Positions 5,129-44,609 of a DNA stretch of 64,000 bases are shown here, in pieces. The translations under genes and the position numbers were made by a program. The stretch lies in NCBI GenBank assembly GCA_902826515.1, contig CADEFD010000005.1, forward strand, positions 9,690 to 73,689. The letters are read 5' to 3'. This stretch comes from an uncultured Acidobacteriota bacterium (GTDB taxonomy: Bacteria; Acidobacteriota; Vicinamibacteria; Vicinamibacterales; UBA2999). The stretch's first letter is position 1. Each line of letters opens with the position of its first letter. The notes below the pieces were generated by a model. It was not told the DNA's origin and did no database searches. It saw nothing but the letters and a program-made list of their open reading frames with translations.

Positions 5129-5197
5129 TCCACCACTGGGGTCAGACCCCATGCTGGGTGGGACCAGACTTCGGGCGGTGACCGTGACAGACCCCGT

Positions 5198-5203: not shown

Positions 5204-5209
5204 TCGGGG

Positions 5210-7804: not shown

Positions 7805-7870
7805 GCGGCACGGCGGAGGGACCGGCACGTCCGGACGTTCCGGCGAACGACGACCGCGCGAACGCAGCCG

Positions 7871-10120: not shown

Positions 10121-10590
10121 CGCGCCACCCCCGCGCCCGGCGACGCGGCCAGCGAGGCGGCGCGGCGCACCGCCTCGCGGATGCGCATGTAGGTGCCGCA
10201 GCGGCACAGGTTGCCGTGCATGCCGGCGGCGATCTCGTCGTCGGTGGGCGACGGCGTGCGCGCCAGCAGCGCCGCGGCGGTCATGAGCTGCCCGGCCTGG
10301 CAGTAGCCGCACTGCGCGACGTCCAGATCGGCCCACGCCTGCTGCACGGGGTGCGCCAGTCCCTCGATGGTCACGACCGCGCGGCCGTTCACCCGCGCGA
10401 GCGGCAGCGTGCAGGCGCGCGTGGCGGCGCCGTCCACGTGCACGGTGCAGGCGCCGCAGAAGCCGCCGCCGCAGCCGAACTTCGTGCCGACGAGCCCGAG
10501 CGCATCGCGCAGCACCCACAGAAGCGGCGTCTCCGGATCGACGTCCACCGTGTGGCGGCGTCCATTCACCTGCATGACGATCTCGGGCAT
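10117..10590 (-). CDS. (2Fe-2S)-binding small subunit of Mo-hydroxylase (IorA-like)
   Basis: [17 protein letters not shown]... with cluster motifs [16 protein letters not shown] and [10 protein letters not shown]...CRCGTY. A strong SD (GAGGAGGAGG) sits before ATG 10590. 157 aa. Confidence 0.9.
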
Positions 10591-10745
10591 CGGCCTCCTC
10601 CTCTTCGCCGCATCAGACGCGCGGAAGGAACGCCGGGCCGGCGGTCTCGTCACGTTGTTGGTCCCACTGGTGGGACCCCGCCCCCGTACATGACACGGGC
10701 GGCGCTCGCGCGCCGCCCGCACCATCCGTTGGTGATTGTCTGGCG

Positions 10746-28590: not shown

Positions 28591-30096
28591 GTGGACGGGA
28601 CGTTCGACGTCGTCATCGTCGGCGCCGGCATCAACGGCGCCGCGGTGTGTCATGCGCTGACGTCCGCCGGTTACCGCGTGCTGCTGGTCGATCAGGGCGA
28701 TTTCGGCGGCGGCACGAGCCAGGCGTCCACGATGCTCATCTGGGGCGGCCTGCTCTATCTGAAGAACCTCGAGCTGGCCACGGTGCTGGCCCTGACCCGC
28801 GACCGCGATCGCCTGGTGGCCGAACACGCCGCGAGCGTGCAGGCGCGGCCCCTGCTCTACGTGCCGTCGGGCGGACCGCCGCGGGTCGTCGTCGAAAGTG
28901 CGCTCGCCGCCTATTGGGTGATGGGCGCCGGCAAACGCGCCCGGCCGCGTCGACTCGACGGCTATGACGAGCAGACCCACCTGGTCGCGGCAGGCGCCGC
29001 CTACGCGATTGAGGAGGCCGCACTCGTCACATCGGACGCCCGCTTCGTGCTCGAATGGGCGCTCGCGGCCGAACGCCTCGGCGCCGACATCCGCAACCAC
29101 GTCCGCGTGGACGCCATCGACAGCGCCGGTCCGAAGGCCGGATGGCGGCTGCGCCTCTGCGACGGACTGACCGGCGTCACCTCGGAGGTCCGCGCGCGGA
29201 TGGTCGTGAACGCGGCCGGCTGCTCGACCGACGCCGTGAACGACCGGGCCGGCATCACGTCGCCGTGGCGTCATCTCTTCAGCCGCGGCGTCTCGCTGGC
29301 CTTTCCGCGGCCGGCCTGGCACACGCGCCACCTCGTGCTCGACAGCGCCGACGGCGACGTGATGACACTGGCGCCGTGGGGCCCGGTGTCGCTGTGGGGT
29401 TCCACCGACACCGTGCACGCCGAACTCGCCGTCGCGCAGCGGCCGGCCGAGGTGGACGTCACACGTCTGCTCACGGAACTCAACCGGCACCTGCGCGCGC
29501 CGCTCGCGCGGCGTGACGTCATCTCGCTGCGCACCGGCGTGCGGCCGGTGGCGGTACGGCGTGACGCGACGGCGCCGAACGCGTCGCAGGCGCTGACCCG
29601 CCATCACCGCCTGCACCTCGACGGCTCGGAGCCCTGGGTCAGTGTGTACGGCGGCAAGCTGAGCGGCTGCCTCGGGCTCGCCGCCGAGGTGCGCGACCTG
29701 GTGGCCCAGCGCGTGTCTCCACGCCACCGTGCGCCGCTGCCGCGCGCCGCAGGGCACGACGTCGCCCCCCGCGTCACCACGACGTTCCCGACACTCGCCG
29801 AGCCGGTGGTGTCAGCTGCCTGGGCGGCCGCCCACGAGCACTGCGCCTCGCTCGACGACTACCTGCGCCGGCGCACCAACATCGCGCAGTGGGTGCCGCG
29901 CGGCGGCTTCGGCGCCGACGGCGAGCATGCCGACGCCCTCGAGCGCATCGCCCTCGAGATCCACGATGGCGACACCGGACTTGCCGAACGCGACCTGGCG
30001 CGGTACTGGCACCAGGTGTCGGTCACCGAGGACCTGCTGACACACACGCACCTGCCGGACGCGCCGCGCGCCTCCGCGCAGTGGAGACGGTTATGA
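28591..30096 (+). CDS. FAD-dependent glycerol-3-phosphate-dehydrogenase-like (GlpD-like) oxidoreductase
   Basis: GTG start. FDVVIVGAGINGAAVCHALTSAGYRVLLVDQGDFGGGTSQASTMLIWGGLLYL matches the GlpD N-terminal signature. Confidence 0.7.
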   Translation: MDGTFDVVIVGAGINGAAVCHALTSAGYRVLLVDQGDFGGGTSQASTMLIWGGLLYLKNLELATVLALTRDRDRLVAEHAASVQARPLLYVPSGGPPRVVVESALAAYWVMGAGKRARPRRLDGYDEQTHLVAAGAAYAIEEAALVTSDARFVLEWALAAERLGADIRNHVRVDAIDSAGPKAGWRLRLCDGLTGVTSEVRARMVVNAAGCSTDAVNDRAGITSPWRHLFSRGVSLAFPRPAWHTRHLVLDSADGDVMTLAPWGPVSLWGSTDTVHAELAVAQRPAEVDVTRLLTELNRHLRAPLARRDVISLRTGVRPVAVRRDATAPNASQALTRHHRLHLDGSEPWVSVYGGKLSGCLGLAAEVRDLVAQRVSPRHRAPLPRAAGHDVAPRVTTTFPTLAEPVVSAAWAAAHEHCASLDDYLRRRTNIAQWVPRGGFGADGEHADALERIALEIHDGDTGLAERDLARYWHQVSVTEDLLTHTHLPDAPRASAQWRRL

Positions 30097-31346
30097 CCCA
30101 CCCGCACCCTGCCCTGCTCGGCGGCCCGCCCGCCGTCACGCTCGACCAGCACGCCGCCAACCGCTGGCCGGTGCTCGAGGCCGACGACGAAGCCGCCGTG
30201 CTCGAGGTGATGCGCCACGGCGATCTCTCGAACCACGTGGTGACGCGCCACCTCGAAGACGACTTCCGCACCCGCCTCGGCTGCCGCCACGCGCTCGCGC
30301 ACGCCAACGGCACGCTCGGCCTGCTGGCCGCGTTCCACGCGCTGGACCTGGCGCCAGGCGACGAGGTCCTCGTGCCCTCGGCGACCTTCTGGGCGTCGGT
30401 GGTGCCGATGCTCTGGGTCGGCGCGGTGCCGGTCTTCTGCGAGATCGAGGGCGAACGCTTCGCGCTCGATCCGGCCGACGTGGAACGCCGCATCACGCCG
30501 CGCACGCGCGCCATGGTGCTCGTGCACCTCTGGGGCCTGCCGGCGAAGGTGGACGCGCTGCTCGAGATCGCCCGGCGGCATGGCCTCGCCGTCATCGAAG
30601 ACGCGTCGCACGCGCTCGGCGCCGTAAGCGGCGGCGTGCCGTGCGGCCGCTTCGGCGACATCAGCGTCTTCAGCCTGCAGACGTCGAAGCTCGCGGCCGC
30701 CGGCGAAGGCGGCGTGTTCCTCACCGACAACGACACCTACATGGAACGGGCGATCTGCCTGGGTGACATCGTGCGGATCTACGAGCTCACGACGCCCGCA
30801 CGGCGCTTCGCGGCCACGAGCTTCGGCATCAAGACCCGCATGGCGCCGCTCTCGGCGGCCGTCGGCCGCACGCAGCTCGCCAAGCTCGATCGCCACAACG
30901 CCCGGCGGGCGGCCAGCATCGAGGCTCTGGGCGCGCGCCTCGCGCCGCTCGGCTTCGAGACGTTCCCCTCGCCGCCCGGCACGACGCGCGTCTACTTCGA
31001 ACATCTCGTGCGCTACGACCCGGCGCACTTCGACGGCCTGCCGGTCGAATCCCTCATCGCGGCCCTGGCCGCCGAAGGCTGCGAGGTCACGGGGCCGCGG
31101 TATCCGCTGGTACATCAGCAGCCGTTCTTCACCGAAGGCCACTGGCGCGGGGTGGCGCGCCTCGCGCCGGGGGACCACGCCGACTGGCAGCCACCCGACC
31201 TGCCGATGAGCGCCGCCGTGCAGCGCAACATGCTGCGTCTGCCGACCTTCCCGTGGGCCGAGCCGGCCCTCATCGAGCAGTACGCGCAGGCCTTCGAGAA
31301 GGTGCACGCGCACGCGAGCCGCCTGCCGCGGCCGGCGCATGCGTGA
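30093..31346 (+). CDS. DegT/DnrJ/EryC1/StrS-family PLP aminotransferase
   Basis: ATGA overlap with the upstream stop. Family segment AVIEDASHALGA. PLP-Lys context SLQTSKLAAAGEGGV. Confidence 0.8.
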   Translation: MTHPHPALLGGPPAVTLDQHAANRWPVLEADDEAAVLEVMRHGDLSNHVVTRHLEDDFRTRLGCRHALAHANGTLGLLAAFHALDLAPGDEVLVPSATFWASVVPMLWVGAVPVFCEIEGERFALDPADVERRITPRTRAMVLVHLWGLPAKVDALLEIARRHGLAVIEDASHALGAVSGGVPCGRFGDISVFSLQTSKLAAAGEGGVFLTDNDTYMERAICLGDIVRIYELTTPARRFAATSFGIKTRMAPLSAAVGRTQLAKLDRHNARRAASIEALGARLAPLGFETFPSPPGTTRVYFEHLVRYDPAHFDGLPVESLIAALAAEGCEVTGPRYPLVHQQPFFTEGHWRGVARLAPGDHADWQPPDLPMSAAVQRNMLRLPTFPWAEPALIEQYAQAFEKVHAHASRLPRPAHA

Positions 31347-32445
31347 GCGACTGCGCCACGGCTGGCGCGCCGCGGCCTTCACGCTCGAGCTCGTGGCCGG
31401 GGACCGGGCGCGCTGGCTGACGGGGCGGGCGACGCCCGTCACCGTGACGCAGCACACGGTCGCGCACCACGGACGCGTCGTCTCTTACGAGTGTTACGCC
31501 GTGGCGAGGCGCGGCGGCTCGCGGTCTCCGGCGATCGTGGTCACACACGGCTTCACTCACGAAGGCGCCGCCGATCCGCGCCTGCAGGCGCTCTGCCGCC
31601 GCCTCGCGCGCGCCGGGTTCGTCGTGGTCGCGCCGGAGTTCGATGACATGCGGCAGTACCGCCTCGGCACCGGCGATCAGGCAGACCTCGAAGCCGTCGT
31701 CGCCGGCCTCGGCGCTCATCCGGACATCGACGTCCACCGGGTGGGCGTGATGGCGTTCAGCTTCGGCGCGGCGCCGACGCTCATCGGCCTCGCCCAGCCG
31801 CCGCTCAAGGAGACCGTGACGTTCGCCGTGATCTTCGGCGGGTACTTCGATCTGAAGCGCACGTTCAAGTACGTGCTGACCGGCGCCTACGACGGCTTCG
31901 GGTATCACGGCCGCCTGCCCGTGCCCACGGTGGGCGACGACCGCTGGAAGTTCCTGCGCGGCAATCTGGCGATGATTCCGCCGTCGCCCACGGCGCGTGT
32001 GCTCGAAGACACCGTCGTGCGACGGGTGGCCGACCCTGCCGCCGCGGTCGACGTGGGCGCGTGCAGCGAGGCGGAACGCGCCGCCTTCGCGCTCATCGAG
32101 AACCGCGATCCCGACCGCTTCGACGCCCTCTACGCCGCCGCCGCGCCGTTCGTGGACGCCTGGGTGCAGCGCCTGTCGCCCGTGCACACCGCGCACGGCA
32201 TCCGCGCGCAGCTCATCCTGATCCACAGCTTCACCGATCAGAAGACGCCCTTCATCGAGAGCATCGCGATGAGCCGTGGTGTGCCGGCGGCGCCGCCGCC
32301 GTCGCTCACGCTGCTGAATGCGTTCGCGCACGTGGACCTGCGGCTCAACTGGCGCAGCCTGCCCTCGCTCGTGCGCGACGGTCTGCCGGGGCTCGTCGCC
32401 GTCTGGCGCATCGTCGTGGCCGTGATGCGCGCCGCCCGCCTCTAG
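31339..32445 (+). CDS. Alpha/beta-hydrolase-fold protein
   Basis: 8-nt overlap with the DegT stop. Segment IVVTHGFTHEG. Nucleophile-elbow-like segment GVMAFSFGAAP. Segment LILIHSFTDQKTP. Confidence 0.6.
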   Translation: MRERLRHGWRAAAFTLELVAGDRARWLTGRATPVTVTQHTVAHHGRVVSYECYAVARRGGSRSPAIVVTHGFTHEGAADPRLQALCRRLARAGFVVVAPEFDDMRQYRLGTGDQADLEAVVAGLGAHPDIDVHRVGVMAFSFGAAPTLIGLAQPPLKETVTFAVIFGGYFDLKRTFKYVLTGAYDGFGYHGRLPVPTVGDDRWKFLRGNLAMIPPSPTARVLEDTVVRRVADPAAAVDVGACSEAERAAFALIENRDPDRFDALYAAAAPFVDAWVQRLSPVHTAHGIRAQLILIHSFTDQKTPFIESIAMSRGVPAAPPPSLTLLNAFAHVDLRLNWRSLPSLVRDGLPGLVAVWRIVVAVMRAARL

Positions 32446-32454
32446 CGCCCGGGG

Positions 32455-35400
32455 TCAGACCCTCCTCAGGGCGGCGCCGGACGTCCCGCCTGCGCCCACG
32501 AGGTCACCGAGGCGCGCGTCCGCCTCGCGGATGTTCGCCTCGATGTGCGCGGCAATCGCGGCGGCGAACGGCTCGTTCAGGAACGTGCTGTGGGAACCCG
32601 GCACGGTGTGGATGTCCACGCCGCCGCGGGCAATCGCCTTCCAGCCGTAGTCGTTCGCCTCGGGGAAGGGGCCGAGCAGCGGTCCGGTGCGCGGCAGGAT
32701 GAGCGTGGCCCGCCCGCCGAACGGCTTCGGCACGTAGGCGCGCAGCACGTCGAGGTGGAGGCGCAGCATCGCGACCTGCGAGTCCGGAAACCGCCACAGC
32801 CCGAGTTCGTCGCGGATGTCGCGCGGCCGCTCGGCACGGTCGTCCTCGTCGCGCCACGGCGTGAGGCGTCGCACCTTGCTGCGCACGCGGCTGGCGAGCC
32901 CGCCGACACCCGTGGGAAGGGCGTCGTCGCCAATCCAGCGCGGCAGGTTCTTCGCAAACGCCATCAGCAGTGGCGCGGGCGCCGGCGCCTCGCCGGCGGC
33001 AATCGCGTAGTCGAGCACCGTGAACGCGCCCACCTCGCGGCCCTGCGCTTCGAGCTGCCGCGCGATCTCGAGCACGATCACCGCGGCCGAACAGTAGCCG
33101 CCGAGGTGATAAGGTCCCTCGGGCCGGAGCGCGACCAGCTCGCGCGTGTAGGCCGCGGCGATCCGCTCGATGGTGCGATCGGCCGGCGCGAACGCCTGCG
33201 TCCAGTCGGCGGCGAACCCGTAGACCGGCCGCGCTGCCGCCAGGTGCTTCGTGACCTGCATGTAGCTGTAGATCTCCCCGCCCACGCCGTGCACCCAGAA
33301 GAACGGCGCTCCGGGACCGCCCGCGCTCATTCTGGCGAGGAGCGGTGTGGACGCCGCCGGCGGCGTGACGGCCGCCGCGGACCGCGACACCGTCCCGTCC
33401 GCAGTCGGCTGCGGGATCCGGGCGGCGGGTGCGGGCGGCGCCGGCAGCGCCGCCTCGATCGCGGCCGCCAGCTGGTCGAGCCGCGAGTGCTCGAAGAGCA
33501 CCACCGGCGCGAGCTTCACGCCGAAGGTCTCGCTCACCTGGTGTACGAGCTGAATAGCCAGCAGCGAGTGCCCGCCGAGATCGAAGAAGTCATCCGTGCG
33601 GCGCACCGCGGGCACGTCGAGCAGAGCCGCCCAGAGGCGCCCGAGGCGCGCTTCGACGGGCGACTCGGCGCGCTCCGGCATGCCGGCGCTCACGAGGCGC
33701 GCGCGGTCCGGATCCGGCAACGCCCGCTCGTCGAGCTTGCCGTTGGCGGTGAGCGGAAACTGGTCCACCGCCACGAACACGCCCGGCACCATGTACTCGG
33801 GCACCGACTGCCGCAGGTGTGCCTGCAGCTCCGCCGGATCAGGCGGCGCGCCAGCGGACTGCACGTACGCCACGAGCCTGAGGTCCGTGGCGCCGCCCGC
33901 GCCGGGCCGCGCCAGCACGCGGCAGCCGGCCACGCGCGCCTGCCGCGCCAGCACCGCTTCGATTTCGCCGAGTTCCACGCGGAAGCCGCGAACCTTGACC
34001 TGCAGGTCCAGCCGCCCGAGATACTCGAGCTCGCCGTTTGCGAGATAGCGCGCGCCGTCGCCCGACTTGTAGAGGGTGCCTGCGCCGAACGGATTCGGCA
34101 CGAAACGTGCGCGTGTCAGGTCGTCGCGGTTGAGATACCCCGCCGTCACGCCGGCGCCGCCGACATAGATCTCGCCGCGCGCTCCCACGGGCACCGGCTG
34201 CATCCGCTCGTCGAGCAGGTAGACCTGCCAGAGCGGCATCGGAGCGCCGATGACGCCGGCGCCCTGATGTGCCGTGTCGGCGCGCGTCACCGTGTGGAAG
34301 GTCACGAACACCGTCGTCTCGGTGATGCCGTACCCGTTCACGAGCGTGGGCGACGACTCGCCGTGTCGATCGAACCAGGCGGCGAGGCCAGGCATGTCGA
34401 GGGCTTCCCCACCGAAGACGACGTAGCGGAGGGCCAGCGTGCCGCGCTGCGCCTCGTCGACGGCCATCACCTGCCTGAACGCCGACGGCGTCTGGCTGAG
34501 CACCGTGACACGCTCGCGCACCAGCAGGTCGTAGAACGCTTCGGGCGAACGGCTCACCGCCTGCGGCACGACCACCACGCGGCCGCCGTACAGCAGCGCG
34601 CCCCACATCTCCCACACCGAGAAGTCGAAGGCGTAGGAGTGGAAGAGCGTCCACACGTCCGTGGCGCCGAAGGTGAAGAGCGGCGCCGCGCCGGCCATGA
34701 GGCTCACGACGTGACGATGCGTGACCATCGACCCCTTCGGTGTGCCCGAGGTCCCGGAGGTATAGATGACGTAGGCCAGGTCGTCCGGTCCCGCCACGGC
34801 CGGCGGATTCTCGTGCCCACCCGCCGCGTCGAGCACCTCGTCCACGAGCACGAGCGTGGCCACGCTGGCCGGCACGCGGCCGGCCACCGCGGCCTGCGTG
34901 AGCAGCACCGGCGCACCGGCATCGCGCAGCATGAACGCCAGCCGCTCGGGCGGATAGGCGAGGTCGATCGGCAGATACGCGCCGCCGGCCTTGAGCACGC
35001 CGAGGAGCGACGGCAGCAGCGCCGCGCCGCGTTCGAGGCAGACACCCACGAGCGAGCCGCGGCCGACGCCACGCGCCGTCAGCGCGGCCGCCACGCGATT
35101 GGCCGCCGCGTTGAGCTGGGCGTAGGTCCACGTGCGGCCGTCACAGGTGACGGCAGGCGCGTGCGGAGTCGCCGCCGCCTGCCCCTCGAAGATCTGCGCG
35201 AGCGGCACGGCCGGATCGAAGCGCAGCGGCTGCGGCGCCACGGGCGGTGCGGTGAGGCGCGCGAACTCCGCCGGCGAGACGAGCGGCAGCGTGCCCACCG
35301 GCTGCGCCGGATCGGCCAGGGCCGCCGCGAGGCACGTGCGGAACGCCTCGAGCCAGTGTTCGACGGTGGAGGCGTCGAGGATGTCGGCGTTGTAGTCGGC

Positions 35401-38400
35401 TTCGACCGCGAGGCCGGCCGGCGTCTCCATCACGTTCACGTGCAGGTCGCGGCGGGACGTCTCGCGCGGCACCGAGAGCACGGTGGACGGCAGCCCCGCG
35501 AATGTCGGGTCGGCGAACGAGGGCTCGAGGGTGAAGCTCACGGACACGAGCGGATCGCGCGAGAGCGACCGCGGCAGCCGCAGCGCGTGCAGCAGGCTCA
35601 GGTAGGTGTACTGCTGGTGGTCGTTGAGGTCGAGCGCGTGCGAGGTCACGGCGGCGACGTGGCGCGCAAACGGCGTGGCCGGATCCACCGCGCAGCGCAC
35701 GGCGATGAAGTTCACGCAGTGTGCGATCAGGCTCCGGGCGTCCACGAGCGCCTGCCCGGCCATCGGGATGCCGACCACGAAGTCGCCCTGGCCGCTCAGG
35801 CGCGAGACGAGCACCTGGAAGACGGCCAGCAGCGTCGAGAACGGCGTGGTGCGGTGCGCCGTGGCAAACCGCCGCACGCGATCCGCCAGATCGGTGTCGA
35901 ACGTCACGACGAGGCGGCGGCCGTTGAACGTCGCCACGGCCGGACGCGGCCGATCCACCGGCAGGTTCAGCGGCTCGGGCACCGTGGCGTACTGCGCGAG
36001 CCACCACGCTGCCGTTTCCCGCGCCTCGTCGTCGCCGGCCCGCTCCGCCAGTGCGCGCGCATACGCGGAGGCCGGCATCGCCGGCGGCAGCCCGTCGGGA
36101 CGCCCGGCGCGCCGCGCCTCGTAACACGCCTCGATTTCGCGCAGCAGCACCCCGAACGACCAGCCATCGCAGATGAGGTGATGGATGGCGATGACGAGCA
36201 CGTCACACCCGCCTTCGCGGATGAGGGCCACACGCCAGAGCGGACCGCGCGCGAAGTCGAACGGCTCGCGGTTGACCCGGCGCAGCACGTCCTCGCGCGC
36301 GGCCGTCGGGTCCGCCGCCTGCGTGTGATCGAATACCTCGACCACGAGCGGCAGCGACGCCGCCACGCGGAATCCCGGCGGCGTGGACGACACCGACATG
36401 CGCAGCGACTCGTGTCGCGCCGAGAGGTCGTTCACCGCGCCTTGAAGGGCGGCGAGATCGAGCGTGCCGCCGATCTCCTTGGCGACCACTTCGTTGAACG
36501 CGGCCGAGGCCACCGGCGACAGGTGCGAGCCGAGCCACACCTCCATCTGCGGTTCGGTGAACGGCACGAGGCCGTCGTCGGTCGCACCGCCGGCGGGGCC
36601 GTCCGGCGCCGGGGCGCCGAAGAAGCCGGCCCGTCGCATCTCGACGAGGCTCGTGTCGAGCGCCTCGACCACCTGCCGCAGTTCGGCCTCGGTGTGCGCG
36701 GTCGAGACGAAGAACGGCCGGTCCCACACGTGGATGCCGTGCAGGCGCAGGTAGTGGAAGAGCAGCCGCGCGAGCGGGTTCGCGTCAGTGAAGCTGATGC
36801 TGCAGATCGAGGCGCAGTGCTCGAGATGCATCGGCGCGTCGTGGCGGCGGAACGTCGCCTCGACATCCGCGGCGAACTGCCCGGCCTTTGCATTCAACTG
36901 GTCGTACAGCGCCGGCCCGGCGTCGCGCACCTGGCGCAGGGACGCCACCGCCGCCGCCAGGCAGAGTGCATTGCGCGTGAAGGTGCCGCCGAAGAAGGTG
37001 ACGCCGCCTTCGGGGAACGAGTCGTCGCCGAACTGCCACGGGCCGCCGTCGAAGGCGTCGAGGTACGGCGCGGCGCCGGCAATCGCCGCAATCGGCAGGC
37101 CGCCGCTCATGATCTTGCCGTAGCAGGCGACGTCGCAGTCCACGCCGAGGTAGCCCTGCGCGCCACGCGGATGCAGGCGGAAGCCGGTGATCATCTCGTC
37201 GTAGATGAGCGGGATATCGAGGTCGCGCGTCAGGCGACGCAGTTCGCGGAGCTGCTCGATCGGCTGGAAGTCGGGATGCCGCCCCTGCACCGGCTCCACG
37301 ATCACGCCGGCGACGTCGCCGGCCCGCTCGCGCAGCACGTCGAGGCTTCCCGGATCGTTCCAGTGCAGCACGATCACCTTGTCCACGAAGTGGTCGGGGA
37401 TGCCGGGTGCCGCCGCAGCGGCGCGGTAGCGGTCGGCGCGGCTCGCCGGCTTCACGAGCACTTCTTCCGACATGCCGTGGTACTCGTCGTCGAAGACAGC
37501 GATCCACTCGCGTCCCGTGGCGGTGCGCACGGCGCGGATGGCGCCCGAGAGCGCTTCGGAGCCGGTGTTGGCGAAGGTCACGCGCTCCATGCCCGTGATC
37601 TCGCGGATGAGGTCCGCGGCCTCCTTCGCGAGCGGTGAGAGCGTGCCGAGTTCGATGCCGCGATCGAGCTGCGCGCGCACCGCATCGGTCACCCACGGCA
37701 CGCCGTGGCCGAAGAGGTTCACGCCGAAGCCGGACGTGAGGTCGAGGTACTCGTTGCCATCGATGTCGCGGACCTTCGTGCCCTGCGACCAGTCGGTCGC
37801 AATCTGGTAGACGATCTCCTTCCAGACCTTACGGAAGCCGCCGACCGCGCGCGGATCGGCCAGCACGCCGCGCTGCGCGGCGGTGAGCGCCTTCGACGCC
37901 GCCGTCTTCGCGGTGTAACGGGCGATGAGATCGTCGAGGCCGCGCTGCTGCACCGGCGTGAGGCCGTGTGCCGACTGATCGATGCCGCGGAAGGGCCCGA
38001 ACTGCGGCGGCGCGGCCGGTGAGGCGCCGGTCGAGGCGGCGGGCGCTGTCACGGCCGGGGTCGGCGCGGTGGCCGCCACGGGCACGGCAGGCGCGGAGGC
38101 CGGCGCGAGAGCCGGCGACGCCGGCACGGGTGCGCCGCCGAGCAGCCGGAGTTGCTCCGCCATGAGCCGCAGTTGTACCTGCACCACACGTTCGAGGGCG
38201 CTGGCCGTCGCGGGCAGCATCGCCGCTGGCGCGGGCGCGAACGCGGAGGCGGTGGGGGCCACGAGCACCGCGGACGGTGGCGCGGTCACGGTGGGCGCCA
38301 CGGCGGCTGGCGACCCGACCGGCGCCGGCGGCAGCTTCCCGTCGATGAAGCGGGCCAGGGCGTCGATGGTCGGGGCGTCCTCGAAGAGCTGTCGGAACGT

Positions 38401-41334
38401 GACGCGCACCTTGAACTCGCCCTTGATACGCAGCGTCGCCTGCGTGAGGAAGAGCGAGTCGAAGCCCATCTCGAGAAACGCGACGTCGCGGCGGATCGTG
38501 CCAGCCGGCATGCCGCTGAGCGTCTGGAAGAGCGCCGTCAGGCGGCGGGCAATCTCATCGACGCGCGGCGGGGGCACCGGCGAAGACACGGACGCGGGAG
38601 GCGGAGTGGGCATCACGGGGACGTCCTGACGGGCGGGCACGGACACGGGCGCGACGGCCGCTGCTGCAACAGCGGGCCGCTCGGGGAAGTAGCGCTGGCG
38701 TTCGAACGGATACGACGGGAGCGAGGTTCTACGGGCGCCGGAGGTGTCGGGCAGCGCCGCCCAGTCGAGCGGCACGCCACGGCTCCACACGCGGCCGGCG
38801 GCCTGCAGCAGCACGGCGAGGTCGTCGGCCGTGTCGGCCGGCACGCGCATCGACGGCACGACGCCGCGCGCGTCGGTCACGCGCGCATGCTGGCGCGCGA
38901 AGGTGCTGAGCGCCTGGCCCGGCCCCGCCTCGACGAGCGTGCGATCGCCCTCGGCGAGCAGCGCGTCGAGGCCGGCCTGGAACCGCACCGTCTCGCGCAG
39001 GTGGCGCACCCAGTAGTCAGGCGACTGTGCCTCGGCGGCGGTCAGCCACGTGCCCGTGAGATTCGAGAGCACGGGACGCGCCGGCGCCGCGAGCGGAATA
39101 GTCTCGAGGAAGGCCCGGAACGGGTCGAGGATCGCATCCACCATCGGCGAATGCGCCGCCACGGCGATGCGCAGGCGCCGGCACTCGATGTCGTCGGCGT
39201 CGAGGGCACGGGCGAAGTCCGCGAGCGCGCCGGGAGCGCCGGCCACAACCGTGGACGCCTCGGCGTTGACCGCGGCAATCGCGAGCGCACGCGGCAGCCG
39301 GGCCCGCACGTCGGCTTCCGGCAGCGGCACGGCGAGCATGCCGCCCTCCGGCAGCGTCTCGAAGAGAGTGCCGCGCAGTTGCACGAGGCGCAGCGCATCC
39401 GGGACCGTCATCACGCCGGCCAGACACGCCGCCGTGTATTCACCCATGCTGTGACCGATGAGGGCGGCCGGCTCGACGCCCCACGCCATCCACTGACGCG
39501 CCAGCGCGTATTCCACCGCGAAGAGGGCCGGTAGTCCCCACGACGGCGCTTCGAGGCGTGCCGCCGCGGCCGCGTCATTCGCGGCCGGCCAGACCGCCGA
39601 CGCCAGGTCGCGATCGGTCACGAGTCCCAGGCACTGGACCAGCGTCTCGCGGAACACCGGAGCGTGGGCAGTGAGGCCGCGGGCCATGCCCACGTACTGC
39701 GCGCCGCCGCCGGGGAACATGAATGCGGCCGGCGCCGTGCTGGCTTCGAGCGCCGGCGCCACGCGCGGATCGGCGCTGCGCAGCGCGCGCACCGCCTCGC
39801 CGGTATTCGCCGCGACGACGGCGCGCCGCCAGGCGAACGGGTGACGTCCGGCGCGCAGGGTGCGTGCGACATCACGAAGCGGCCGCTCGGGCGACGCCTC
39901 GAGCGCATCGGCGAGTCGCGTCGTGGCGGCATCGAGGGCCGTCGGCGTCTTCGCGGACACGACAAGGAGGGTGCTCGCGGCGTCGGCGCCTTCGCGCGGC
40001 CGGTCTGGCGCTTCCTCGAGCACGACATGGGCGTTCGTGCCGCCGAGGCCGAAGGCACTCACCCCGGCCCGTCGCGGCGTCGGGCCCGCGGGCCAGTCGC
40101 GGCGTTCCGCCGCCACGACGAAGGGCGTGGCCGCGAAGTTGATGGCGGCGTTCGGCGCGCTGAAATGCAGCGTCGGCGGCACCTCGCGATGTTCGAGCGC
40201 GAGCACGGTCTTGATGAGCCCGGCCACGCCCGCGGCCGTGTCGGTGTGGCCGATGTTCCCCTTCACCGAGCCGATCGCGCAGAACCCGGTGCGGTCGGTG
40301 CCGGCGCGGAAGGCCTGCGTGAGCCCGGCGATCTCGATCGGATCGCCGAGCGGCGTGCCGGTGCCGTGCGCTTCGACATAACCAATCGAGTCGGCCGGCA
40401 CGTTGGCGACGGCAAGCGCGGTGGCAATCGCGTCCGCCTGCCCTTCCGGACTCGGCGCCGGAAAACTCATCTTCGCGGCGCCGTCGTTGTTGAGGGCGCT
40501 GCCGCGGATGACAGCGCGGATCGTATCGCCGTCGGCGATCGCATCGGCGAGGCGCTTCAGCACCACGAGGCCCACGCCGTCGCCGTTCACCGTGCCCTGC
40601 GCCTGCGCGTCGAAGGGCCGGCAGTGGCCATCCGGCGAGAAGATGCCGCCCTCGTGATAGTGATGCCCGGCGCGCAGCGGCACGCCCACGGCCACGCCGC
40701 CGGCGAGCGCCATGTCGCTCTGGTAGGCGAGCAGGCTCTGACAGGCCTGGCACACGGCGACGAGCGAGGTGGAACACGCCGTCTGCACGTTCATGCTGGG
40801 CCCGCGCAGGTTCAGCTTGTAGCTGACGCGCGTGGTCAGGTAGTCCTTGTCGGTGCCGAGCCTCAGCGGGTACGCCCCGTAACGCGTGCCCTCGGGATCC
40901 GCCGCGCGCAGGAGCGGCAGGTAGGTGGACTGGCTCATGCCGCCGAAGACACCGACGAGCCCCGGCGCGGCGAGCGGATCGTAGCCGGCGTCTTCGAGCG
41001 CGGCCCACGCACATTCGAGGAACAACCGGTGCTGCGGGTCCATGATCTCGACGTCGCCCGGCAGGTAGCCGAAGAACGCCGCGTCGAAGGTGTCGGCGTC
41101 GTCGATGACGCCCTTGGCGCGCACGTAGTCGGGATCCTCGACGAGCCCGGGCGGCACGCCGGCCGCCACGAGTTCCTCCGGCGTGAACCACTGGATCGAC
41201 TCACGCCCCTCGCGGAGGTTGCGCCAGAACGTGGTGAGGTCCGCCGCGCCGGGAAACCGTCCGGCCATGCCGACGACGGCAATCGCGTCCGCGAGTCCTT
41301 CGGGCAGGTCGGAGGCGTCCAATCCGGCGCTCAT
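32455..41334 (-). CDS. Hybrid type-I PKS / NRPS megasynthase: KS-AT-ACP-aminotransferase-C-A-T-TE (2959 aa)
   Basis: ATG 41334 overlaps the stop of the upstream NRPS (ATGA). All core motifs were read from the translation; see the domain features below. Confidence 0.95.
   Translation of the reverse strand: [2959 protein letters not shown]
32458..33345 (-). other. Thioesterase (TE) domain with Cys at the nucleophile position
   Basis: [10 protein letters not shown]; elbow LGGYCSAAV (Cys TGT = reverse complement of 33091..33093); [15 protein letters not shown] (His codon 32590..32592). Confidence 0.8.
33430..33642 (-). other. Thiolation (T/PCP) domain
   Basis: [16 protein letters not shown], with the Ser codon at 33565..33567. 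Confidence 0.85.
33655..35202 (-). other. Adenylation (A) domain, specificity unassigned
   Basis: [58 protein letters not shown]; NGKLD. Confidence 0.85.
35245..36567 (-). other. Condensation (C) domain
   Basis: [16 protein letters not shown] (HHxxxDG at 36163..36183). Confidence 0.85.
36610..37977 (-). other. In-line class-III (GSA-aminomutase-like) aminotransferase (AmT) domain
   Basis: [48 protein letters not shown]. PLP-Lys context [11 protein letters not shown] (Lys codon 37114..37116). Confidence 0.8.
38335..38562 (-). other. Acyl carrier protein (ACP) domain
   Basis: [12 protein letters not shown], with the phosphopantetheinyl Ser codon at 38455..38457. Confidence 0.8.
38785..39729 (-). 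other. Acyltransferase (AT) domain (approximate bounds)
   Basis: [16 protein letters not shown] (Ser codon 39448..39450). The specificity/catalytic-His motif reads VAAHS (39151..39162 = VAAH). Confidence 0.8.
40015..41289 (-). other. Ketosynthase (KS) domain (approximate bounds)
   Basis: [13 protein letters not shown]; active site TACSTS (Cys codon 40774..40776); [27 protein letters not shown]. Confidence 0.85.
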
Positions 41335-44300
41335 CGGGCCGTGCCCCGCGCGGCGCGCATGCGGGCCGCGTGGTCGCGCTGGCGGGCGGCGCGATCGGCT
41401 GGCGCGGCCGCAGCCACGGCGAGCGGCGCATCGGTCGCGCGCGCCAGCTCCGCGGCCAGGGCGCGCACGGTGGGCAGCCGGAACAACATGACGATCGGCA
41501 CGTCGAGGCCGAGCGCGTCGCAGAGCCGCCGGTGCACCTGCATGAGCGACAGCGAGTGGCCGCCGGCCTCGAAGAAACTCACCGTGACGCCGACCGCGTC
41601 CACGCCGAGCACCTCGCACCAGATCGCCGCGATACGCCGCTCGAGGTCGGTGGCCGGCGCGACGCGCCGGGCCGCCTCGCCGCCGCCGGCCGCCGGCCTG
41701 GGCAGACGCGCCCGATCGAGTTTGCCGTTCGGGCTGAGCGGCAGCGCGGCGAGCGCCACGATGTGCTGCGGCACCATGTAGTCGGGCAGCGCCGCGGCGA
41801 GCGCCCGGCGCAGGCTGTCGACGGCCGCCGGGCCGGTCACGTACGCCACGAGCTGCGGATCGCCGGGCACGTCCTGGCGCGCCACGACCACGGCGTCGGT
41901 CACACCCGGCTGCGCGGCGAGCGCCGCTTCGATCTCGCCGAGTTCGATGCGGAACCCGCGCACCTTCACCTGGTGGTCGGTGCGGCCGAGGTACTCGAGG
42001 GCGCCGTCGGGCAGGCGGCGGCAGATGTCGCCGGTGCGGTACAGACGCGCGTCCGGCACAGCCGCGAACGGATCGGACAGGAACCGCGCGGCGGTGAGAT
42101 CCGGACGGCCGTGATAGCCGGTCCCCACCTGCACGCCGCCGAGATACAGCTCACCGGAGACGCCAGCCGGCACCGGTTCGAGCGCGTCGTCGAGCACGTA
42201 ACAACGCGTGTTGGGCGCGGCGTAGCCAATCGGCACGCGCGTCGTGGGCGCTTCGCGGGGACACGTCCAGTGCGTCACGTCCACCGCGGCTTCGGTGGGC
42301 CCGTAGAGATTGCGGAGCGTCGCCGGGAGCACGCGATGGCAGGCATCCACCAGGTCGGGCGCCAGGGCTTCCCCGCTGCAGATGATCTCGCGCACCGAGG
42401 TGCACGTCGCCACATGGCGCGCCTGGAGGAACACACGCAGCATCGACGGCACGAAGTGCAGCACGGTCACCTGGTGCGTCGTGACGGCGGCCACGAGGGC
42501 ATCGGGATCGCGATGGCTGTCTGGCGCGGCCACGACGAGCCGGGCGCCTTCCCCGAGCGGCCAGAAGAACTCCCACACCGAGACATCGAAACTGAACGGC
42601 GTCTTCTGCAGCACCGCGTCGGCCGGCGTGAGCTGATAGAAGGCCTGCATCCAGCGCAGGCGGTTCACGATGCCGCGATGGGTGTTGATGGCGCCCTTGG
42701 GCCGCCCGGTCGAGCCCGACGTGTAGATCATGTAGGCCGGGTCGTCGGGCCCGATCGATGCGACCGGCGGCGTGGCCGGCCGCTCGTCGAGGGCCTCGCC
42801 GGCCTCGTCGAGCGCCAGCACGATGGCGTCGGTGTGCAGGCGCGCGGCCACCTCGAGGTGCGTCACGACCACCGTGGCGCCGGCATCCGCCAGCATGAAG
42901 GCCACACGGTCGGCCGGATAGTCGGGGTCGATCGGCACGTAGGCGGCGCCCGCCTTGAGCACCGCCAGGAGCGTCACGACCATGTCGAGCGATCGCTCGA
43001 GACAGACGGCGACGCGCTCGCGGGGCTGCAGGCCGAGGCCGCGCAGGTGGTGCGCGAGCTGATTGGCGCGGCGGTCGAGCGCCGCGTACGTGAGCGTGCC
43101 CTCGCCGGCGACGACCGCCACCGCATCGGGCGTGCGCGCGGCCGCGGCTTCGAACGTGTGCTGCAGGAGCCCGGCGGGGCCGTAGTCCACGTCGGTGTCG
43201 TTGCCGTGCGCGAGGAGGGCCCGGCGCTCGTCGGCGGTATGCAGCGGCAGGCGGCCGATCGGGAGGGCGGCCGCCAGCGGCATCGCGAGCAGCAGCGTGC
43301 GCAGCCCGGCCAGCATCCGCGCGGCCACGCCCGGCTCGAGGCGGTCGTGATAGAAGCCGAGGTGCAGCGACAACCGCTCGCCACCGTAGGCCGTGAGCGT
43401 GACACCGATATTGGTCTGGCCGTGATACGCGACACGGCGCGACGCCCAGGCGCCGCCGCGCGATCGCATCACCTCGTCGATCGCCCGGTGTTCGTAGACG
43501 ACGAGCGTGTCGAAGAGCGGCTGGCCCGCGGGCACGGCACTCGCCGCCTGCACGCGCGTCAGCGGCGTGTGCGCCCAGGGCCGCTGAGCGCGCCAGGCGC
43601 GGCGCACATCGGCGAGAAACACTTCGAGCGGCTGCGCGCGGTCGATCGCCACCCGCAGCGGCAAGGTGTTGATGAGCAGGCCGAGCATCCGCTCGACGCC
43701 GGGCACCGGCAGATGACGGCCGGCGCGGGTCACGCCGAACATGACGTCGTGCTCGTGACTGTAGTGGTGCAGCAGGAGCGCCCAGGCGGCCTGCACGAGC
43801 GTGTGCATGGTGACGCCCTGCGCGGCGGCAAACGACTCGAGCGCCGCTGTTTCCGCGGCTTCGAGCCGGCGCGCGATCTCGTCGTGCACGCGCGTCGCCG
43901 GTGGCGCCGCCGGTGCCGGCGCGGCGAGGGCGAGCCGCGTGGGCGAGGTCACACCGGCAAGCGTGGCGTGCCAGAAGCGATCGGCCGCGGACCAGTCGGT
44001 CGCGGCCAGCGCCCGCACGACGTCGCCGAAGGCGCCGCGCGGTTCGACGGCGCGCGGAGCCGCCGCATGGTCGTAGCGCGCGAAGACGTCATCGAGCACG
44101 AGCGGGAACGAACGGCCGTCGAGCAGGGCGTGATGGAACGTCCAGATGAGGATGTCGTCGCCGCCGGCCTCCTGCAGGAGCGTCCAGCGCATCACCGGGG
44201 CCTGGTCGAGGGGCAGCGGACGCCGGCGATCGGCGGCGAGCCACGCGGCCAGGCGCGGCGCCACGTCGGCAGGGGCGACGTCGCGCCACGACTCGACCGT

Positions 44301-44609
44301 CCAGTCGAGCGTGACGTCCGGCGCCGCCTGCTGCACCGGGCGCCCGTCGGCCGTCCACGTGAAGGCCGTGCGGAGCATCGGCTCGGCGAACACGACGGCG
44401 CGCCACGCCGCGTGCAGGTCGGCGGCGCGCAGGCGCTCGCGCGTGCGGAGGACGATCTGTTCGATGTCCACGCCCGACCCGGGGGCGCGGACGGCGTGCA
44501 GCAGCATGCCCGCCTGAAGGGGGACGAGCGGCAGCGGCGCGTCGGATGCAGCGGCGGTTGGCGGCGGCGCGGGCAGCAGCGCGTCCCGCCCGGTGATGGG
44601 TGGTGTCAT
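41331..44609 (-). CDS. NRPS module C-A-T (1092 aa), A domain predicted Ser
   Basis: [10 protein letters not shown] (HHxxxDG 44115..44135); [62 protein letters not shown] (Ser codon 41553..41555). Confidence 0.95.
   Translation of the reverse strand: [1092 protein letters not shown]
41430..41657 (-). other. Thiolation domain T1
   Basis: [16 protein letters not shown]. Confidence 0.85.
41685..43172 (-). other. Adenylation domain A1 (hand-read code DVWHISLVDK, Ser-like)
   Basis: Specificity positions were read by ungapped alignment to GrsA-PheA numbering between FDVSVWE and [11 protein letters not shown]. Confidence 0.75.
43245..44537 (-). other. N-terminal condensation domain of the first module (approximate bounds)
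   Basis: [13 protein letters not shown]...; [13 protein letters not shown]. Confidence 0.8.

What the first reader, a model, noticed from the sequence alone, without database searches (positions are those of the whole stretch)
36610..37977. In-line aminotransferase after a reductive-domain-free PKS module fed by an aminoacyl starter: predicted vicinal beta,gamma-diamino acid
The module is KS-AT-ACP followed directly by a class-III (GSA-aminomutase-like) aminotransferase domain (PLP Lys in CYGKIMSGG, 37114..37116), and then by C. There is no KR. The beta-keto group formed after Claisen condensation is therefore the only obvious substrate for amination, as in MycA-type modules. If the upstream module delivers Ser, the intermediate would be a 3,4-diamino-5-hydroxypentanoyl thioester. 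That vicinal diamine building block is not one I can assign to a known assembly-line logic.
Basis: inference. Interest (0 to 1): 0.65.

Follow-up and report, generated by a model that had tools for sequence, protein, structure and literature searches.

The report
Serine-primed PKS module with in-line aminotransferase
A compact two-gene peptide/polyketide assembly line from an activated-sludge Acidobacteriota bacterium carries an intact mycosubtilin-type aminotransferase domain after a serine-fed, reduction-free PKS module, so it should build a 3-amino-4-(acyl)amino acid unit; this layout is common in genomes, but I found no characterised product for it.

Summary
Gene B (32455..41334) is KS-AT-T-AmT-C-A-T-TE with no reductive domain. 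The PLP lysine is K1407, at 37114..37116 as stated. The AmT matches the solved MycA AmT over its full length (E 1.7e-106, 40.6% identity) and keeps all 58 near-invariant family residues, so it is not dead. Gene A (41331..44609; ATGA overlap with gene B) is C-A-T with a Ser-type code (DVWHISLVDK).

In-line beta-transamination of a Ser-derived beta-ketoacyl thioester is the best reading. However, gene A starts with an intact C domain from a clade found only at the N-terminus of such lines. The Ser amine is therefore probably N-acylated, giving 3-amino-4-acylamido rather than a free diamine.

The logic is not unique. At least 47 of 70 related genome loci with a mapped KS, across many phyla, have a genuine amino-acid A domain feeding KS-AT-T-AmT-C-A-T-TE. 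One is a single 3450-aa protein in a cultured Rhodobacterales. Eight literature searches found no characterised product.

Side leads: the TE nucleophile is Cys, and the last A domain is of Thr/ObiF lineage.

Verdict: new variant of a known kind, moderate interest.

The parts
41331..44609 (-). Gene A, 1092 aa: the C-A-T module that feeds the PKS module
   Evidence: Pfam hits are Condensation 26-466, AMP-binding 486-833 plus AMP-binding_C, and PP-binding 991-1054. The best named NCBIfam family is the stand-alone Ser module SolG (741 bits, below its cutoff of 2200). Its stop codon overlaps the gene B start as ATGA.
43212..44534 (-). C1: N-terminal condensation domain with an intact HHALLDG motif, starter-position clade
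   Evidence: The best solved matches are the McyB C domain (4.9e-66) and a PvdL C domain (residues 457-917/556-1016 of the deposited chains; 1.6e-54). The next tier, TycB and SrfA-C C domains (LCL type from my own knowledge), scores ~1e-36. All N-terminal C domains of related loci score 231-286 bits with C1 and <=75 bits with C2.
41721..43154 (-). A1: adenylation domain, Ser-type specificity code DVWHISLVDK
   Evidence: The code was extracted. The best single-domain solved matches are the Txo2 C-A fragment (1.9e-163) and EntF (5.3e-119). That Txo2 module 7 and EntF activate Ser is from my own knowledge.
41448..41639 (-). T0: carrier domain of gene A (GGHSL)
   Evidence: Pfam PP-binding 991-1054.
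32455..41334 (-). Gene B, 2959 aa: KS-AT-T-AmT-C-A-T-TE
   Evidence: Pfam domains. The ORF is continuous.
40162..41289 (-). KS with Cys (TACSTS) and both His motifs (EAHGTGT, GNIGHT)
   Evidence: Pfam ketoacyl-synt and Ketoacyl-synt_C. Motif positions.
38881..39723 (-). AT (GHSMGE; VAAH in place of HAFH/YASH). Malonyl-CoA is inferred, not shown.
   Evidence: Pfam Acyl_transf_1. Motifs. No genes for unusual extender units are present in the window.
38347..38544 (-). T1 (ACP), approximate limits. The phosphopantetheine Ser960 lies in GFDSL (38452..38466).
   Evidence: It is the second PP-binding stretch. Motif position.
36610..37977 (-). AmT: in-line class-III (fold-type I) aminotransferase domain, residues 1120-1575. 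The Pfam core is 36730..37803. The PLP Lys K1407 is at 37114..37116.
   Evidence: Aminotran_3, E 1.2e-39. MycA AmT 6KFM, E 1.7e-106 over query residues 6-453. 40.6% identity to MycA. All 58 near-invariant residues are kept, including K1407, D1379, Y1285-H1286-G1287, G1258/E1260 and T1451.
35254..36567 (-). C2: elongation condensation domain (HHLICDG) that accepts the beta-aminoacyl donor
   Evidence: Pfam Condensation. C2-like domains follow the AmT in essentially all related loci.
33736..35190 (-). A2: adenylation domain, code DFWSVGGVFK, Thr/ObiF lineage (FGGE plus GYGITE); substrate unassigned
   Evidence: Code. The best single-domain solved match is the ObiF1 A domain, 6.4e-127. The YGITE motif occurs only in Thr-coded A domains of the data set. 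The Gly/Gly/Gly-Ile pocket for the beta-OH group is described in PMC6668435.
33457..33648 (-). T2: carrier domain (GGHSL)
   Evidence: Pfam PP-binding 2564-2627.
32536..33306 (-). TE with a Cys nucleophile (GGYCSAA; C2748 at 33091..33093)
   Evidence: Pfam Thioesterase. In the alignment to solved TEs, the Cys sits where the Ser sits in 7CRN and where the Cys sits in AB3403. The Cys is conserved in L001-L003.
28591..32445 (+). Possible accessory genes, convergent with gene B: FAD oxidoreductase (28591..30096), DegT-type aminotransferase (29889..31346) and DLH-like hydrolase (31339..32445). Their membership of the cluster is uncertain.
   Evidence: Pfam hits. The genes are syntenic next to the TE in the 84% relative L002 but absent from L001 and L003.

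Best explanation
Genes A and B form a self-contained three-module NRPS-PKS-NRPS line.

Proposed steps:
1. A1 loads L-Ser on T0.
2. The N-terminal C1 domain probably caps the Ser amine with an acyl group. The donor is unknown; this step is inferred.
3. The KS takes the (acyl)seryl chain, and the AT supplies what is probably malonate. Claisen condensation gives a T1-bound 4-(acyl)amino-5-hydroxy-3-oxopentanoyl thioester.
4. No KR is present. The in-line MycA-type AmT, in its PMP form and charged by an amino-acid donor, converts the C3 ketone to an amine. The product is a 3-amino-4-(acyl)amino-5-hydroxypentanoyl thioester, which has a beta,gamma-diamino acid skeleton.
5. C2 condenses this with a Thr-lineage amino acid loaded by A2 on T2.
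6. The Cys-TE releases the product. Hydrolysis or a small-ring cyclisation is possible; this is not resolved.

Shown here: the domain order, intact catalytic motifs, the homology of the AmT to MycA, the Ser-type code, and the conservation of the layout across phyla. Inferred: every chemical step, the extender unit, the acyl cap, the amine donor, the stereochemistry and the mode of release.
For: - Domain order, with no reductive domain.
- The AmT matches the solved MycA AmT over its full length, including the N-terminal extension (E 1.7e-106). MycA AmT is experimentally established as acting on an ACP-bound beta-ketoacyl thioester (quoted in PMC3870968).
- All 58 family-invariant AmT residues are kept, and the PLP Lys is at 37114..37116.
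- The KS, AT, three carrier and two C-domain catalytic motifs are intact.
- A1 has a Ser-type code, and its nearest solved A domains are Txo2 and EntF.
- The ATGA start/stop overlap couples gene A to gene B.
- The same two-gene layout occurs in a Chloroflexota MAG. A fully fused A-T-KS-AT-T-AmT-C-A-T-TE occurs as a single 3450-aa ORF in Paramylibacter ulvae.
- At least 47 of 70 related loci with a mapped KS have an Asp235-bearing amino-acid A domain directly upstream of the KS.
- C1 belongs to a clade found at the N-terminus of such lines.
- No other NRPS or PKS gene is present in the 64 kb window.
Against: - No product or enzyme of this exact type has been characterised, so every step is prediction.
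- No acyl donor (FAAL, ACP or acyl-CoA ligase) is encoded nearby for C1.
- C1's nearest solved relatives are McyB and PvdL C domains rather than solved starter C domains (RzmA-Cs 2.7e-11, CDA-C1 1e-8).
- The AT motif VAAH matches neither textbook signature.
- The A2 substrate is unassigned.
- Evidence of transcription is thin. Only two or three short metatranscriptome contigs match fully.
Confidence: 0.65

Rival explanations
1. Ser is delivered with a free amine, so the AmT produces a true free vicinal diamine, a 3,4-diamino-5-hydroxypentanoyl thioester. C1 would be idle, would use a donor supplied in trans, or its acyl cap would be removed later, for example by the neighbouring hydrolase.
For: Thirty related loci have A-T-KS with no detected C domain or methyltransferase, so uncapped starters appear to exist in the family. 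No acyl-activating gene lies next to C1. A DLH-like hydrolase and an Asp-protease-like gene flank the operon and could deprotect the amine.
Against: C1 has an intact HHxxxDG motif and belongs to a conserved clade specific to the N-terminal position. The closest relatives L001 and L003 replace C1 with a methyltransferase embedded in the A domain, which is another way to block the amine. From chemical knowledge, a free gamma-amine on a beta-keto or beta-amino thioester is prone to 5-ring lactamisation. That would off-load the chain before C2.
Confidence: 0.2
2. Gene A is not a simple one-shot feeder. Like the stand-alone Ser module SolG of solanimycin, its C domain could act between protomers, iteratively, or dehydrate Ser. 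The KS would then receive an oligo-Ser/Dha or other chain rather than a single seryl unit.
For: Gene A's best named family is SolG (741 bits, model positions 114-1153 of 1163). SolG is a lone C-A(Ser)-T module proposed to iterate five times, with a dual-clade C domain (PMC10204066). C1 is McyB/PvdL-like rather than TycB/SrfA-C-like.
Against: The score is far below the SolG cutoff of 2200. C1 has the canonical HHxxxDG motif, not SolG's HHxxDDx. C1-like domains also precede Pro- and Gly-coded A domains in related lines, so the clade's role is not specific to Ser or Dha.
Confidence: 0.08
3. The AmT is skipped or inactive in vivo. The gamma-amino-beta-keto unit would be kept, as in Ibu-type residues, or would cyclise to a tetramate or pyrrolinone.
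For: A metagenome relative with a C1-type start has C-A-T-KS-AT-T-C with no AmT, so keto retention exists as an alternative design (L085).
Against: All 58 invariant AmT residues and the PLP Lys are intact. The AmT is conserved at 71-84% identity in the sister lineages. The downstream C-A-T-TE is intact.
Confidence: 0.05
4. The GSA-aminomutase-like domain works as a mutase on the alpha-aminoketone. It would aminate C3 and then remove the C4 amine, giving a 3-amino-4-oxo acid through a transient diamine, as HemL does with glutamate-1-semialdehyde.
For: The domain's nearest free-standing relatives are GSA aminomutases. A 4-amino-3-oxoacyl substrate has the same 1,2-amino-carbonyl motif as GSA. 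This is inference only.
Against: Scores are well below the HemL family cutoffs (233 vs 398 and 224 vs 527). The nearest characterised homologue, MycA AmT, is a plain transaminase. The commonest upstream residue in the family is Pro-coded, a secondary amine that cannot follow this route. A C1-capped amide nitrogen cannot form an aldimine.
Confidence: 0.03

Closest known systems
MycA / iturin-family AmT module (mycosubtilin, iturin A, bacillomycin): AL-ACP-KS-AT-ACP-AmT-C-A-T
   Same: Both have the KS-AT-ACP-AmT-C-A-T order with no reductive domain. The AmT is homologous over its full length, including the N-terminal extension (E 1.7e-106, 40.6% identity), and keeps the same PLP-binding residues. 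The expected chemistry is beta-keto to beta-amino on the carrier protein.
   Different: MycA is primed with a long-chain fatty acid through an acyl ligase-ACP. Here the primer is an (acyl)seryl chain from a C-A-T module, so the new amine lies next to an existing nitrogen. The line here has only three modules and ends in a Cys-TE. In an NJ tree, MycA groups with loci that lack an upstream amino-acid A domain, not with the window.
McyE / NdaF AmT modules (Adda in microcystin and nodularin), and the cyanobacterial beta-amino polyketide units (puwainaphycins, tychonamides; PMC4219810, PMC13252402)
   Same: All use an in-line class-III AmT at a PKS-to-NRPS junction to make a beta-amino acid.
   Different: Their primers are polyketide or fatty-acyl chains, not an aminoacyl unit.
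Statine-type modules (aminoacyl to KS-AT-KR-ACP, giving gamma-amino-beta-hydroxy acids, e.g. didemnin or hapalosin units) and Ibu-type gamma-amino-beta-keto units (from my own knowledge)
   Same: An amino acid thioester is extended by one malonate on a hybrid KS.
   Different: The beta-keto group is reduced or kept in those modules. Here an AmT occupies the position of the KR.
BioF/BioA steps of biotin synthesis (KAPA to 7,8-diaminopelargonate) (from my own knowledge)
   Same: The chemical logic is the same. An amino acid plus an acyl unit gives an alpha-aminoketone, and a class-III aminotransferase then makes a vicinal diamine.
   Different: BioF and BioA are free-standing enzymes that act on free substrates. 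C-C bond formation is by a PLP oxoamine synthase rather than a KS, and the donor is SAM. BioA family scores here are far below cutoff (85 vs 405).
ObiF1 (obafluorin beta-lactone) and SulM (sulfazecin beta-lactam) terminal modules with Cys thioesterases
   Same: The terminal C-A-T-TE has Cys in place of the TE Ser. A2's best single-domain solved match is the ObiF1 A domain, and it keeps the Gly/Gly/Gly-Ile beta-hydroxyl pocket features.
   Different: The TE showed no detectable similarity to the ObiF1 TE at E<0.01, and its motif is GxCxA rather than GxCxG. The A2 code differs from ObiF1 (DAWGCGMI) and from SulM A3 (DVWEMNADD). The relative L003 combines the Cys-TE with an Asn-like code.
Uncharacterised entries in the 2013 survey of PLP domains in assembly lines, e.g. 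Salinisphaera shabanensis F7QBN5: C-A-CP-KS-AT-CP-PLP1-C-A-CP (PMC3870968)
   Same: The domain order is identical, including the N-terminal C domain. It was predicted as Gly-Mal-Nrp.
   Different: It is a table entry only. No product or function was assigned, and the upstream amino acid differs.

Membership tests
MycA-type in-line PKS aminotransferase (AmT) domain | Fold-type I, class-III (Aminotran_3) domain, homologous to MycA AmT over its full length including the N-terminal extension | tested here: met
   Pfam PF00202, E 1.2e-39. 6KFM, E 1.7e-106, query residues 6-453 against chain residues 7-455. 40.6% identity.
MycA-type in-line PKS aminotransferase (AmT) domain | Intact PLP-binding and catalytic residues (Schiff-base Lys, Asp at the pyridine N, YHG, GSEA-type phosphate loop) | tested here: met
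   K1407, D1379, Y1285-H1286-G1287 and G1258/E1260 are present. 58 of 58 columns conserved in >=97% of 83 sequences are kept.
MycA-type in-line PKS aminotransferase (AmT) domain | Position directly after the ACP of a KS-AT-ACP module without KR/DH/ER, and directly before a C domain | tested here: met
   Pfam domain order. The same polypeptide is confirmed by independent contigs.
MycA-type in-line PKS aminotransferase (AmT) domain | Transamination of a carrier-bound beta-ketoacyl thioester with an amino-acid donor | not testable with these tools
   This needs an in vitro assay or product analysis.
Glutamate-1-semialdehyde 2,1-aminomutase (HemL) | Score above the curated family cutoffs as a free-standing enzyme | tested here: not met
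   NF000818 scores 233 against a cutoff of 398. TIGR00713 scores 224 against 527. The domain is embedded in a 2959-aa synthase.
Ser-activating NRPS adenylation domain (A1) | Asp235 and Lys517 plus a Ser-type specificity code | tested here: met
   The code is DVWHISLVDK. EntF's DVWHFSLVDK is recalled from my own knowledge. Nearest solved A domains are Txo2 C-A and EntF. Substrate activation itself was not assayed.
Starter (N-acylating) condensation domain (C1) | First domain of the line, intact HHxxxDG, and a clade distinct from elongation C domains | tested here: met
   There is no upstream module in the window. The motif is HHALLDG. C1-like domains occupy the N-terminal position in 20 related loci and differ from C2-like domains.
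Starter (N-acylating) condensation domain (C1) | Use of an acyl-CoA or acyl-ACP donor to N-acylate the first amino acid | not testable with these tools
   No acyl-activating gene lies nearby. Solved starter C domains are only distant matches (2.7e-11 and 1e-8).
SolG (solanimycin iterative Ser module) | Score above the NCBIfam cutoff, and an HHxxDDx C-domain motif | tested here: not met
   741 bits against a cutoff of 2200. The motif here is the canonical HHALLDG, whereas SolG has HHxxDDx (PMC10204066).
Beta-lactone / beta-lactam-forming Cys thioesterase (ObiF, SulM type) | Cys nucleophile in the GxCxG motif | tested here: inconclusive
   The Cys is present, but the motif is G-Y-C-S-A. The Cys-containing TE of AB3403 (4ZXH) is also among the hits, and I know of no small-ring role for it (my own knowledge), so a Cys alone does not imply that chemistry.
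Beta-lactone / beta-lactam-forming Cys thioesterase (ObiF, SulM type) | Sequence relatedness of the TE to ObiF or SulM TE | tested here: not met
   Neither appears among TE matches at E<0.01. The best matches are 7DXO/7CRN and AB3403.

The most novel reading that the evidence does not exclude
The window is one member of a large family of minimal (C)-A-T / KS-AT-T-AmT / C-A-T-TE lines, spread across many phyla and chemically unexplored. These lines would turn ordinary amino acids into beta,gamma-diamino acyl dipeptides. In this Acidobacteriota branch, the Cys-TE together with a Thr/ObiF-lineage terminal A domain would release the product as a strained or small ring. Candidates are a beta-lactone on the terminal beta-hydroxy amino acid, or a 7-membered diazepanedione closed through the new beta-amine. 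Either would be a new reactive pharmacophore class made by only two genes.
Probability: 0.2. Interest if true: 0.75.

Novelty: new variant of a known kind. Interest (0 to 1): 0.5.

Why it matters
If the prediction holds, a KS-AT-T-AmT module can be primed by an amino acid as well as by a fatty acid or polyketide. That would give assembly-line access to beta,gamma-diamino acids, the amino analogues of statine. Vicinal diamines are metal-binding, protease-targeting and heterocycle-forming motifs that so far are made mainly by chemical synthesis. The same layout recurs in dozens of genomes, including cultured Rhodobacterales, Bradyrhizobium, Flavobacteriia and Microcoleus. One successful expression of a ~12 kb two-gene operon would therefore annotate a whole orphan family. 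It would also add an interchangeable KR-to-AmT option for engineering hybrid lines.

Tried and rejected
- **Literature.** Eight full-text searches found no characterised aminoacyl-to-KS-to-AmT pathway. They covered AmT domain, vicinal diamine, diamino, pyrrolizidine, guadinomine, domain strings and solanimycin. The only direct mention is the uncharacterised survey table in PMC3870968.
- **Metagenome scan with gene A**. Only distant C-A-T modules came back (<=48% identity over full length). No orthologue of the Ser module linked to an AmT was found, so the scan was uninformative about conservation of gene A.
- **A2 as a Dap-activating domain paired with a SulM-like TE.** Rejected. The SulM A3 code is DVWEMNADD, against DFWSVGGVFK here.
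- **A2 as identical to ObiF1.** Rejected. The codes differ (DAWGCGMI), although the lineage and the beta-OH pocket features are shared.
- **TE as an ObiF or SulM relative.** Not supported by sequence.
- **AmT as a HemL or BioA orthologue.** Rejected on curated cutoffs.
- **Upstream 'A' domains of relatives as fatty-acyl ligases, as in MycA.** Rejected. Nearly all keep Asp235 and have recognisable amino-acid codes.
- **Transcription.** Metatranscriptome contigs gave only two or three short full matches (37709..37975, 31529..31725, 37353..37604). This is too thin to claim expression.
- **AmT phylogeny against McyE, NdaF and ItuA.** Not possible, because those sequences were not retrievable. Only MycA, taken from the PDB alignment, could be placed.
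Full report
**What is there.** The window is ~72% G+C. Its nearest relatives are Acidobacteriota MAGs: L002 is 84% identical over the AmT, and L003 and L001 are 71-72%. The finding lies on the minus strand. A single uninterrupted ORF (32455..41619) most plausibly starts at ATG 41334, which overlaps the stop of the upstream gene as ATGA. Pfam gives KS, AT, PP-binding, Aminotran_3, Condensation, AMP-binding, PP-binding and Thioesterase, with no KR, DH or ER hit. The unassigned linkers (~135 aa and ~90 aa) are too short to hide a KR. The upstream gene (41331..44609) is C-A-T. The rest of the 64 kb holds no other NRPS or PKS gene. Contigs from an independent wastewater metagenome cover 31169..38257 at >99.8% identity, across the C/AmT/T1 junctions.

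**Is the AmT competent and MycA-like?**
- The stated span (residues 1120-1575) matches the crystallised MycA AmT (6KFM/6KFR/6KFU) over query residues 6-453 with E 1.7e-106. Free-standing GSA aminomutases follow at ~1e-46. Identity to MycA is 40.6% over 451 residues.
- I aligned 83 AmT sequences: the window, MycA and 81 genome loci. 58 columns are conserved in at least 97% of them, and the window keeps all 58. These include K1407, D1379, Y1285-H1286-G1287, G1258/E1260 and T1451.
- HemL and BioA family scores are far below the curated cutoffs.
- The KS (Cys, His, His), the AT (GHSMGE), all three carrier serines and both HHxxxDG motifs are intact.

**What feeds the module?**
- A1's specificity code is DVWHISLVDK. 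Its best single-domain solved matches are the Txo2 C-A fragment (1.9e-163) and EntF (5.3e-119). From my own knowledge, both activate Ser, and EntF's code is DVWHFSLVDK. Ser is therefore a sound prediction.
- Ser is not a bare starter, because gene A begins with a C domain carrying an intact HHALLDG motif. Its nearest solved relatives are the McyB C domain (4.9e-66) and a PvdL C domain (1.6e-54). The TycB and SrfA-C C domains (LCL type from my own knowledge) score ~1e-36.
- In 20 related loci that also start C-A-T-KS-AT-T-AmT (Microcoleus, Tychonema, Chloroflexota, Chthoniobacter), the N-terminal C domain is C1-like (231-286 bits) and unlike the post-AmT C domain (<=75 bits). Elongation C domains show the reverse pattern. 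C1 thus belongs to a conserved clade specific to the starting position, most simply an N-acylating starter C.
- The closest relatives L001 and L003 have no C1. They carry an A domain with a Pro-type code, interrupted by a methyltransferase. That is another way of blocking the starter nitrogen.
- From chemical knowledge, a free gamma-amine on a beta-keto or beta-amino thioester lactamises readily, so capping makes mechanistic sense.
- I therefore revise the predicted T1-bound product to 3-amino-4-(acyl)amino-5-hydroxypentanoyl. This is still a beta,gamma-diamino skeleton, but it is probably not a free diamine during assembly.

**How common is the logic?**
- A scan of one genome per GTDB species returned 80 loci with a related AmT.
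- Domain maps and specificity codes show that the upstream 'A' domains keep Asp235 and carry recognisable amino-acid codes. These are Pro-like, Val-like, Gly, Thr and others. They are not fatty-acyl ligases as in MycA.
- By a strict distance rule, 47 of the 70 loci in which a KS could be mapped have such an A-T directly before the KS. About a dozen more qualify once an interrupted A domain or an extra spacer is allowed.
- Pfam confirms an identical two-gene layout in a Chloroflexota MAG (L047). It also confirms a single 3450-aa A-T-KS-AT-T-AmT-C-A-T-TE protein in the cultured Paramylibacter ulvae.
- In Microcoleus the line is C-A(Pro)-T | KS-AT-T-AmT | JmjC/cupin hydroxylase | C-A(Val)-T-TE.
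- A 2013 survey already listed C-A-CP-KS-AT-CP-PLP-C-A-CP in Salinisphaera without assigning a product (PMC3870968).
- In a rough NJ tree, MycA groups with loci that lack an upstream amino-acid A domain. The window forms an Acidobacteriota clade with L001-L003.

**Known or not?** Eight full-text searches found no characterised pathway in which an aminoacyl-derived beta-keto thioester is aminated in line. The closest characterised logics are:
- MycA/iturin: the same module with a fatty-acyl primer.
- McyE/NdaF and the cyanobacterial beta-amino polyketide units.
- Statine-type modules: the same primer, with a KR in place of the AmT.
- BioF/BioA: the same aminoketone-to-vicinal-diamine chemistry, carried out by free enzymes.

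I rate this a new variant of a known kind. The domain is an ordinary MycA-type AmT, the context is uncharacterised but widespread, and the predicted building block has no characterised assembly-line precedent that I could find.

**Downstream half.**
- C2 is a canonical elongation C domain.
- A2's code, DFWSVGGVFK, matches no code I know. Its best single-domain solved match is the ObiF1 A domain (6.4e-127).
- A2 carries FGGE and GYGITE. YGITE occurs in this data set only in Thr-coded A domains and in the window/L001 A2. The ObiF1 structure paper attributes beta-hydroxyl recognition in Thr1 and ObiF1 to exactly these Gly/Gly/Gly-Ile backbone elements (PMC6668435).
- The sister locus L002 has a textbook Thr code at this position.
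- The TE nucleophile is Cys (GGYCSAA, C2748) in the window and in L001-L003. Most family members have Ser.
- Cys-TEs make the beta-lactone of obafluorin and the beta-lactam of sulfazecin (PMC6668435, PMC12042044). However, the TE here is not detectably related to either. It resembles 7CRN/7DXO and the Cys-containing AB3403 TE. L003 pairs the Cys-TE with an Asn-like code. Small-ring release is therefore a lead, not a conclusion.

**Cluster limits and provenance.**
- The operon sits between a sortilin/BNR gene and a permease/FAD-oxidase/amidohydrolase block. Both flanks are syntenic in L001 and L003.
- L002 shares the convergent DLH-like hydrolase, DegT-type aminotransferase and second FAD oxidoreductase. 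L001 and L003 lack them, so their membership of the cluster is open.
- Near-identical DNA recurs in many wastewater and activated-sludge metagenomes from independent studies.
- Metatranscriptome support is limited to two or three short contigs.

**Verdict.** In-line beta-amination of a Ser-derived beta-ketoacyl chain is the best explanation (confidence ~0.65). The starter nitrogen is probably capped, and the logic is a widespread orphan design rather than a peculiarity of this window. Interest is moderate at 0.5. It would rise if the product proves to be a free vicinal diamine or a Cys-TE-made small ring.

Noticed in passing
window 33082..33102 (-), residue C2748 at 33091..33093: The thioesterase has Cys where the nucleophilic Ser normally sits (GGYCSAA). 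The Cys is conserved in L001-L003. It also occurs in some other family members (L047, L026/L051/L053, L039/L044, L032/L055), while most have Ser.
   Followed up: partly
window 33736..35190 (-): The terminal A domain has an unassigned code, DFWSVGGVFK. It belongs to the Thr/ObiF1 lineage: it carries the YGITE and FGGE motifs, and its best single-domain PDB match is the ObiF1 A domain. The 84% relative L002 has a textbook Thr code, DFWNIGMVHK, at the same position.
   Followed up: partly
L001 3783..6896 and L003 ~3400..6450, compared with window 41331..44609: The loading module has been swapped between close relatives at the same chromosomal site. The window has C-A(Ser)-T, whereas L001 and L003 have a Pro-coded A domain interrupted by a methyltransferase, then T, with no C domain.
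   Followed up: partly
L010 and L012 (Gemmatimonadota MAGs), ~550..11400: The layout is odd: A(Pro,MT)-T-KS-AT-C-A(Gly)-T-T-AmT-C. The AmT follows a tandem carrier pair after an NRPS module rather than a KS-AT-T. This could be an artefact of tblastn domain mapping, or a genuinely different use of the AmT.
   Followed up: no
L016 11801..12676 (Microcoleus) and equivalents in ~15 Microcoleus/Tychonema/Lyngbya loci: A separate JmjC/cupin-type hydroxylase gene sits between KS-AT-T-AmT and C-A-T-TE in the cyanobacterial versions (C-A(Pro)-T start). This suggests a hydroxylated beta-amino unit.
   Followed up: partly
L085 (metagenome contig Ga0316231_1002829) 1251..13659: This line starts with a C1-type C domain, then A-T-KS-AT-T, and runs straight into C-A-T-C-A-T with no AmT and no KR. 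It appears to be a keto-retaining counterpart of the same design.
   Followed up: no
window 28591..32445 (+) and 44908..45741 (-): The genes flanking the operon are an FAD oxidoreductase, a DegT/DnrJ/EryC1-type aminotransferase, a DLH-like hydrolase and a clan-AA aspartic-protease-like protein. The first three are syntenic in L002 only. A role in deprotection or tailoring is possible but untested.
   Followed up: partly
whole window; runs X1-X20: Near-identical sequence (57-97% of sampled 31-mers) recurs in wastewater, activated-sludge and bioreactor metagenomes from more than ten independent studies. The host therefore looks like a recurrent sludge Acidobacteriota lineage.
   Followed up: partly
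window 49..5128 (+), 5210..7804 (+), 20851..23202 (+): Unrelated neighbours include two tandem MacB/FtsX-type ABC permease genes, an M1 aminopeptidase and a TonB-dependent receptor. Many long spurious ORFs lie on opposite strands, as expected at 72% G+C.
   Followed up: no
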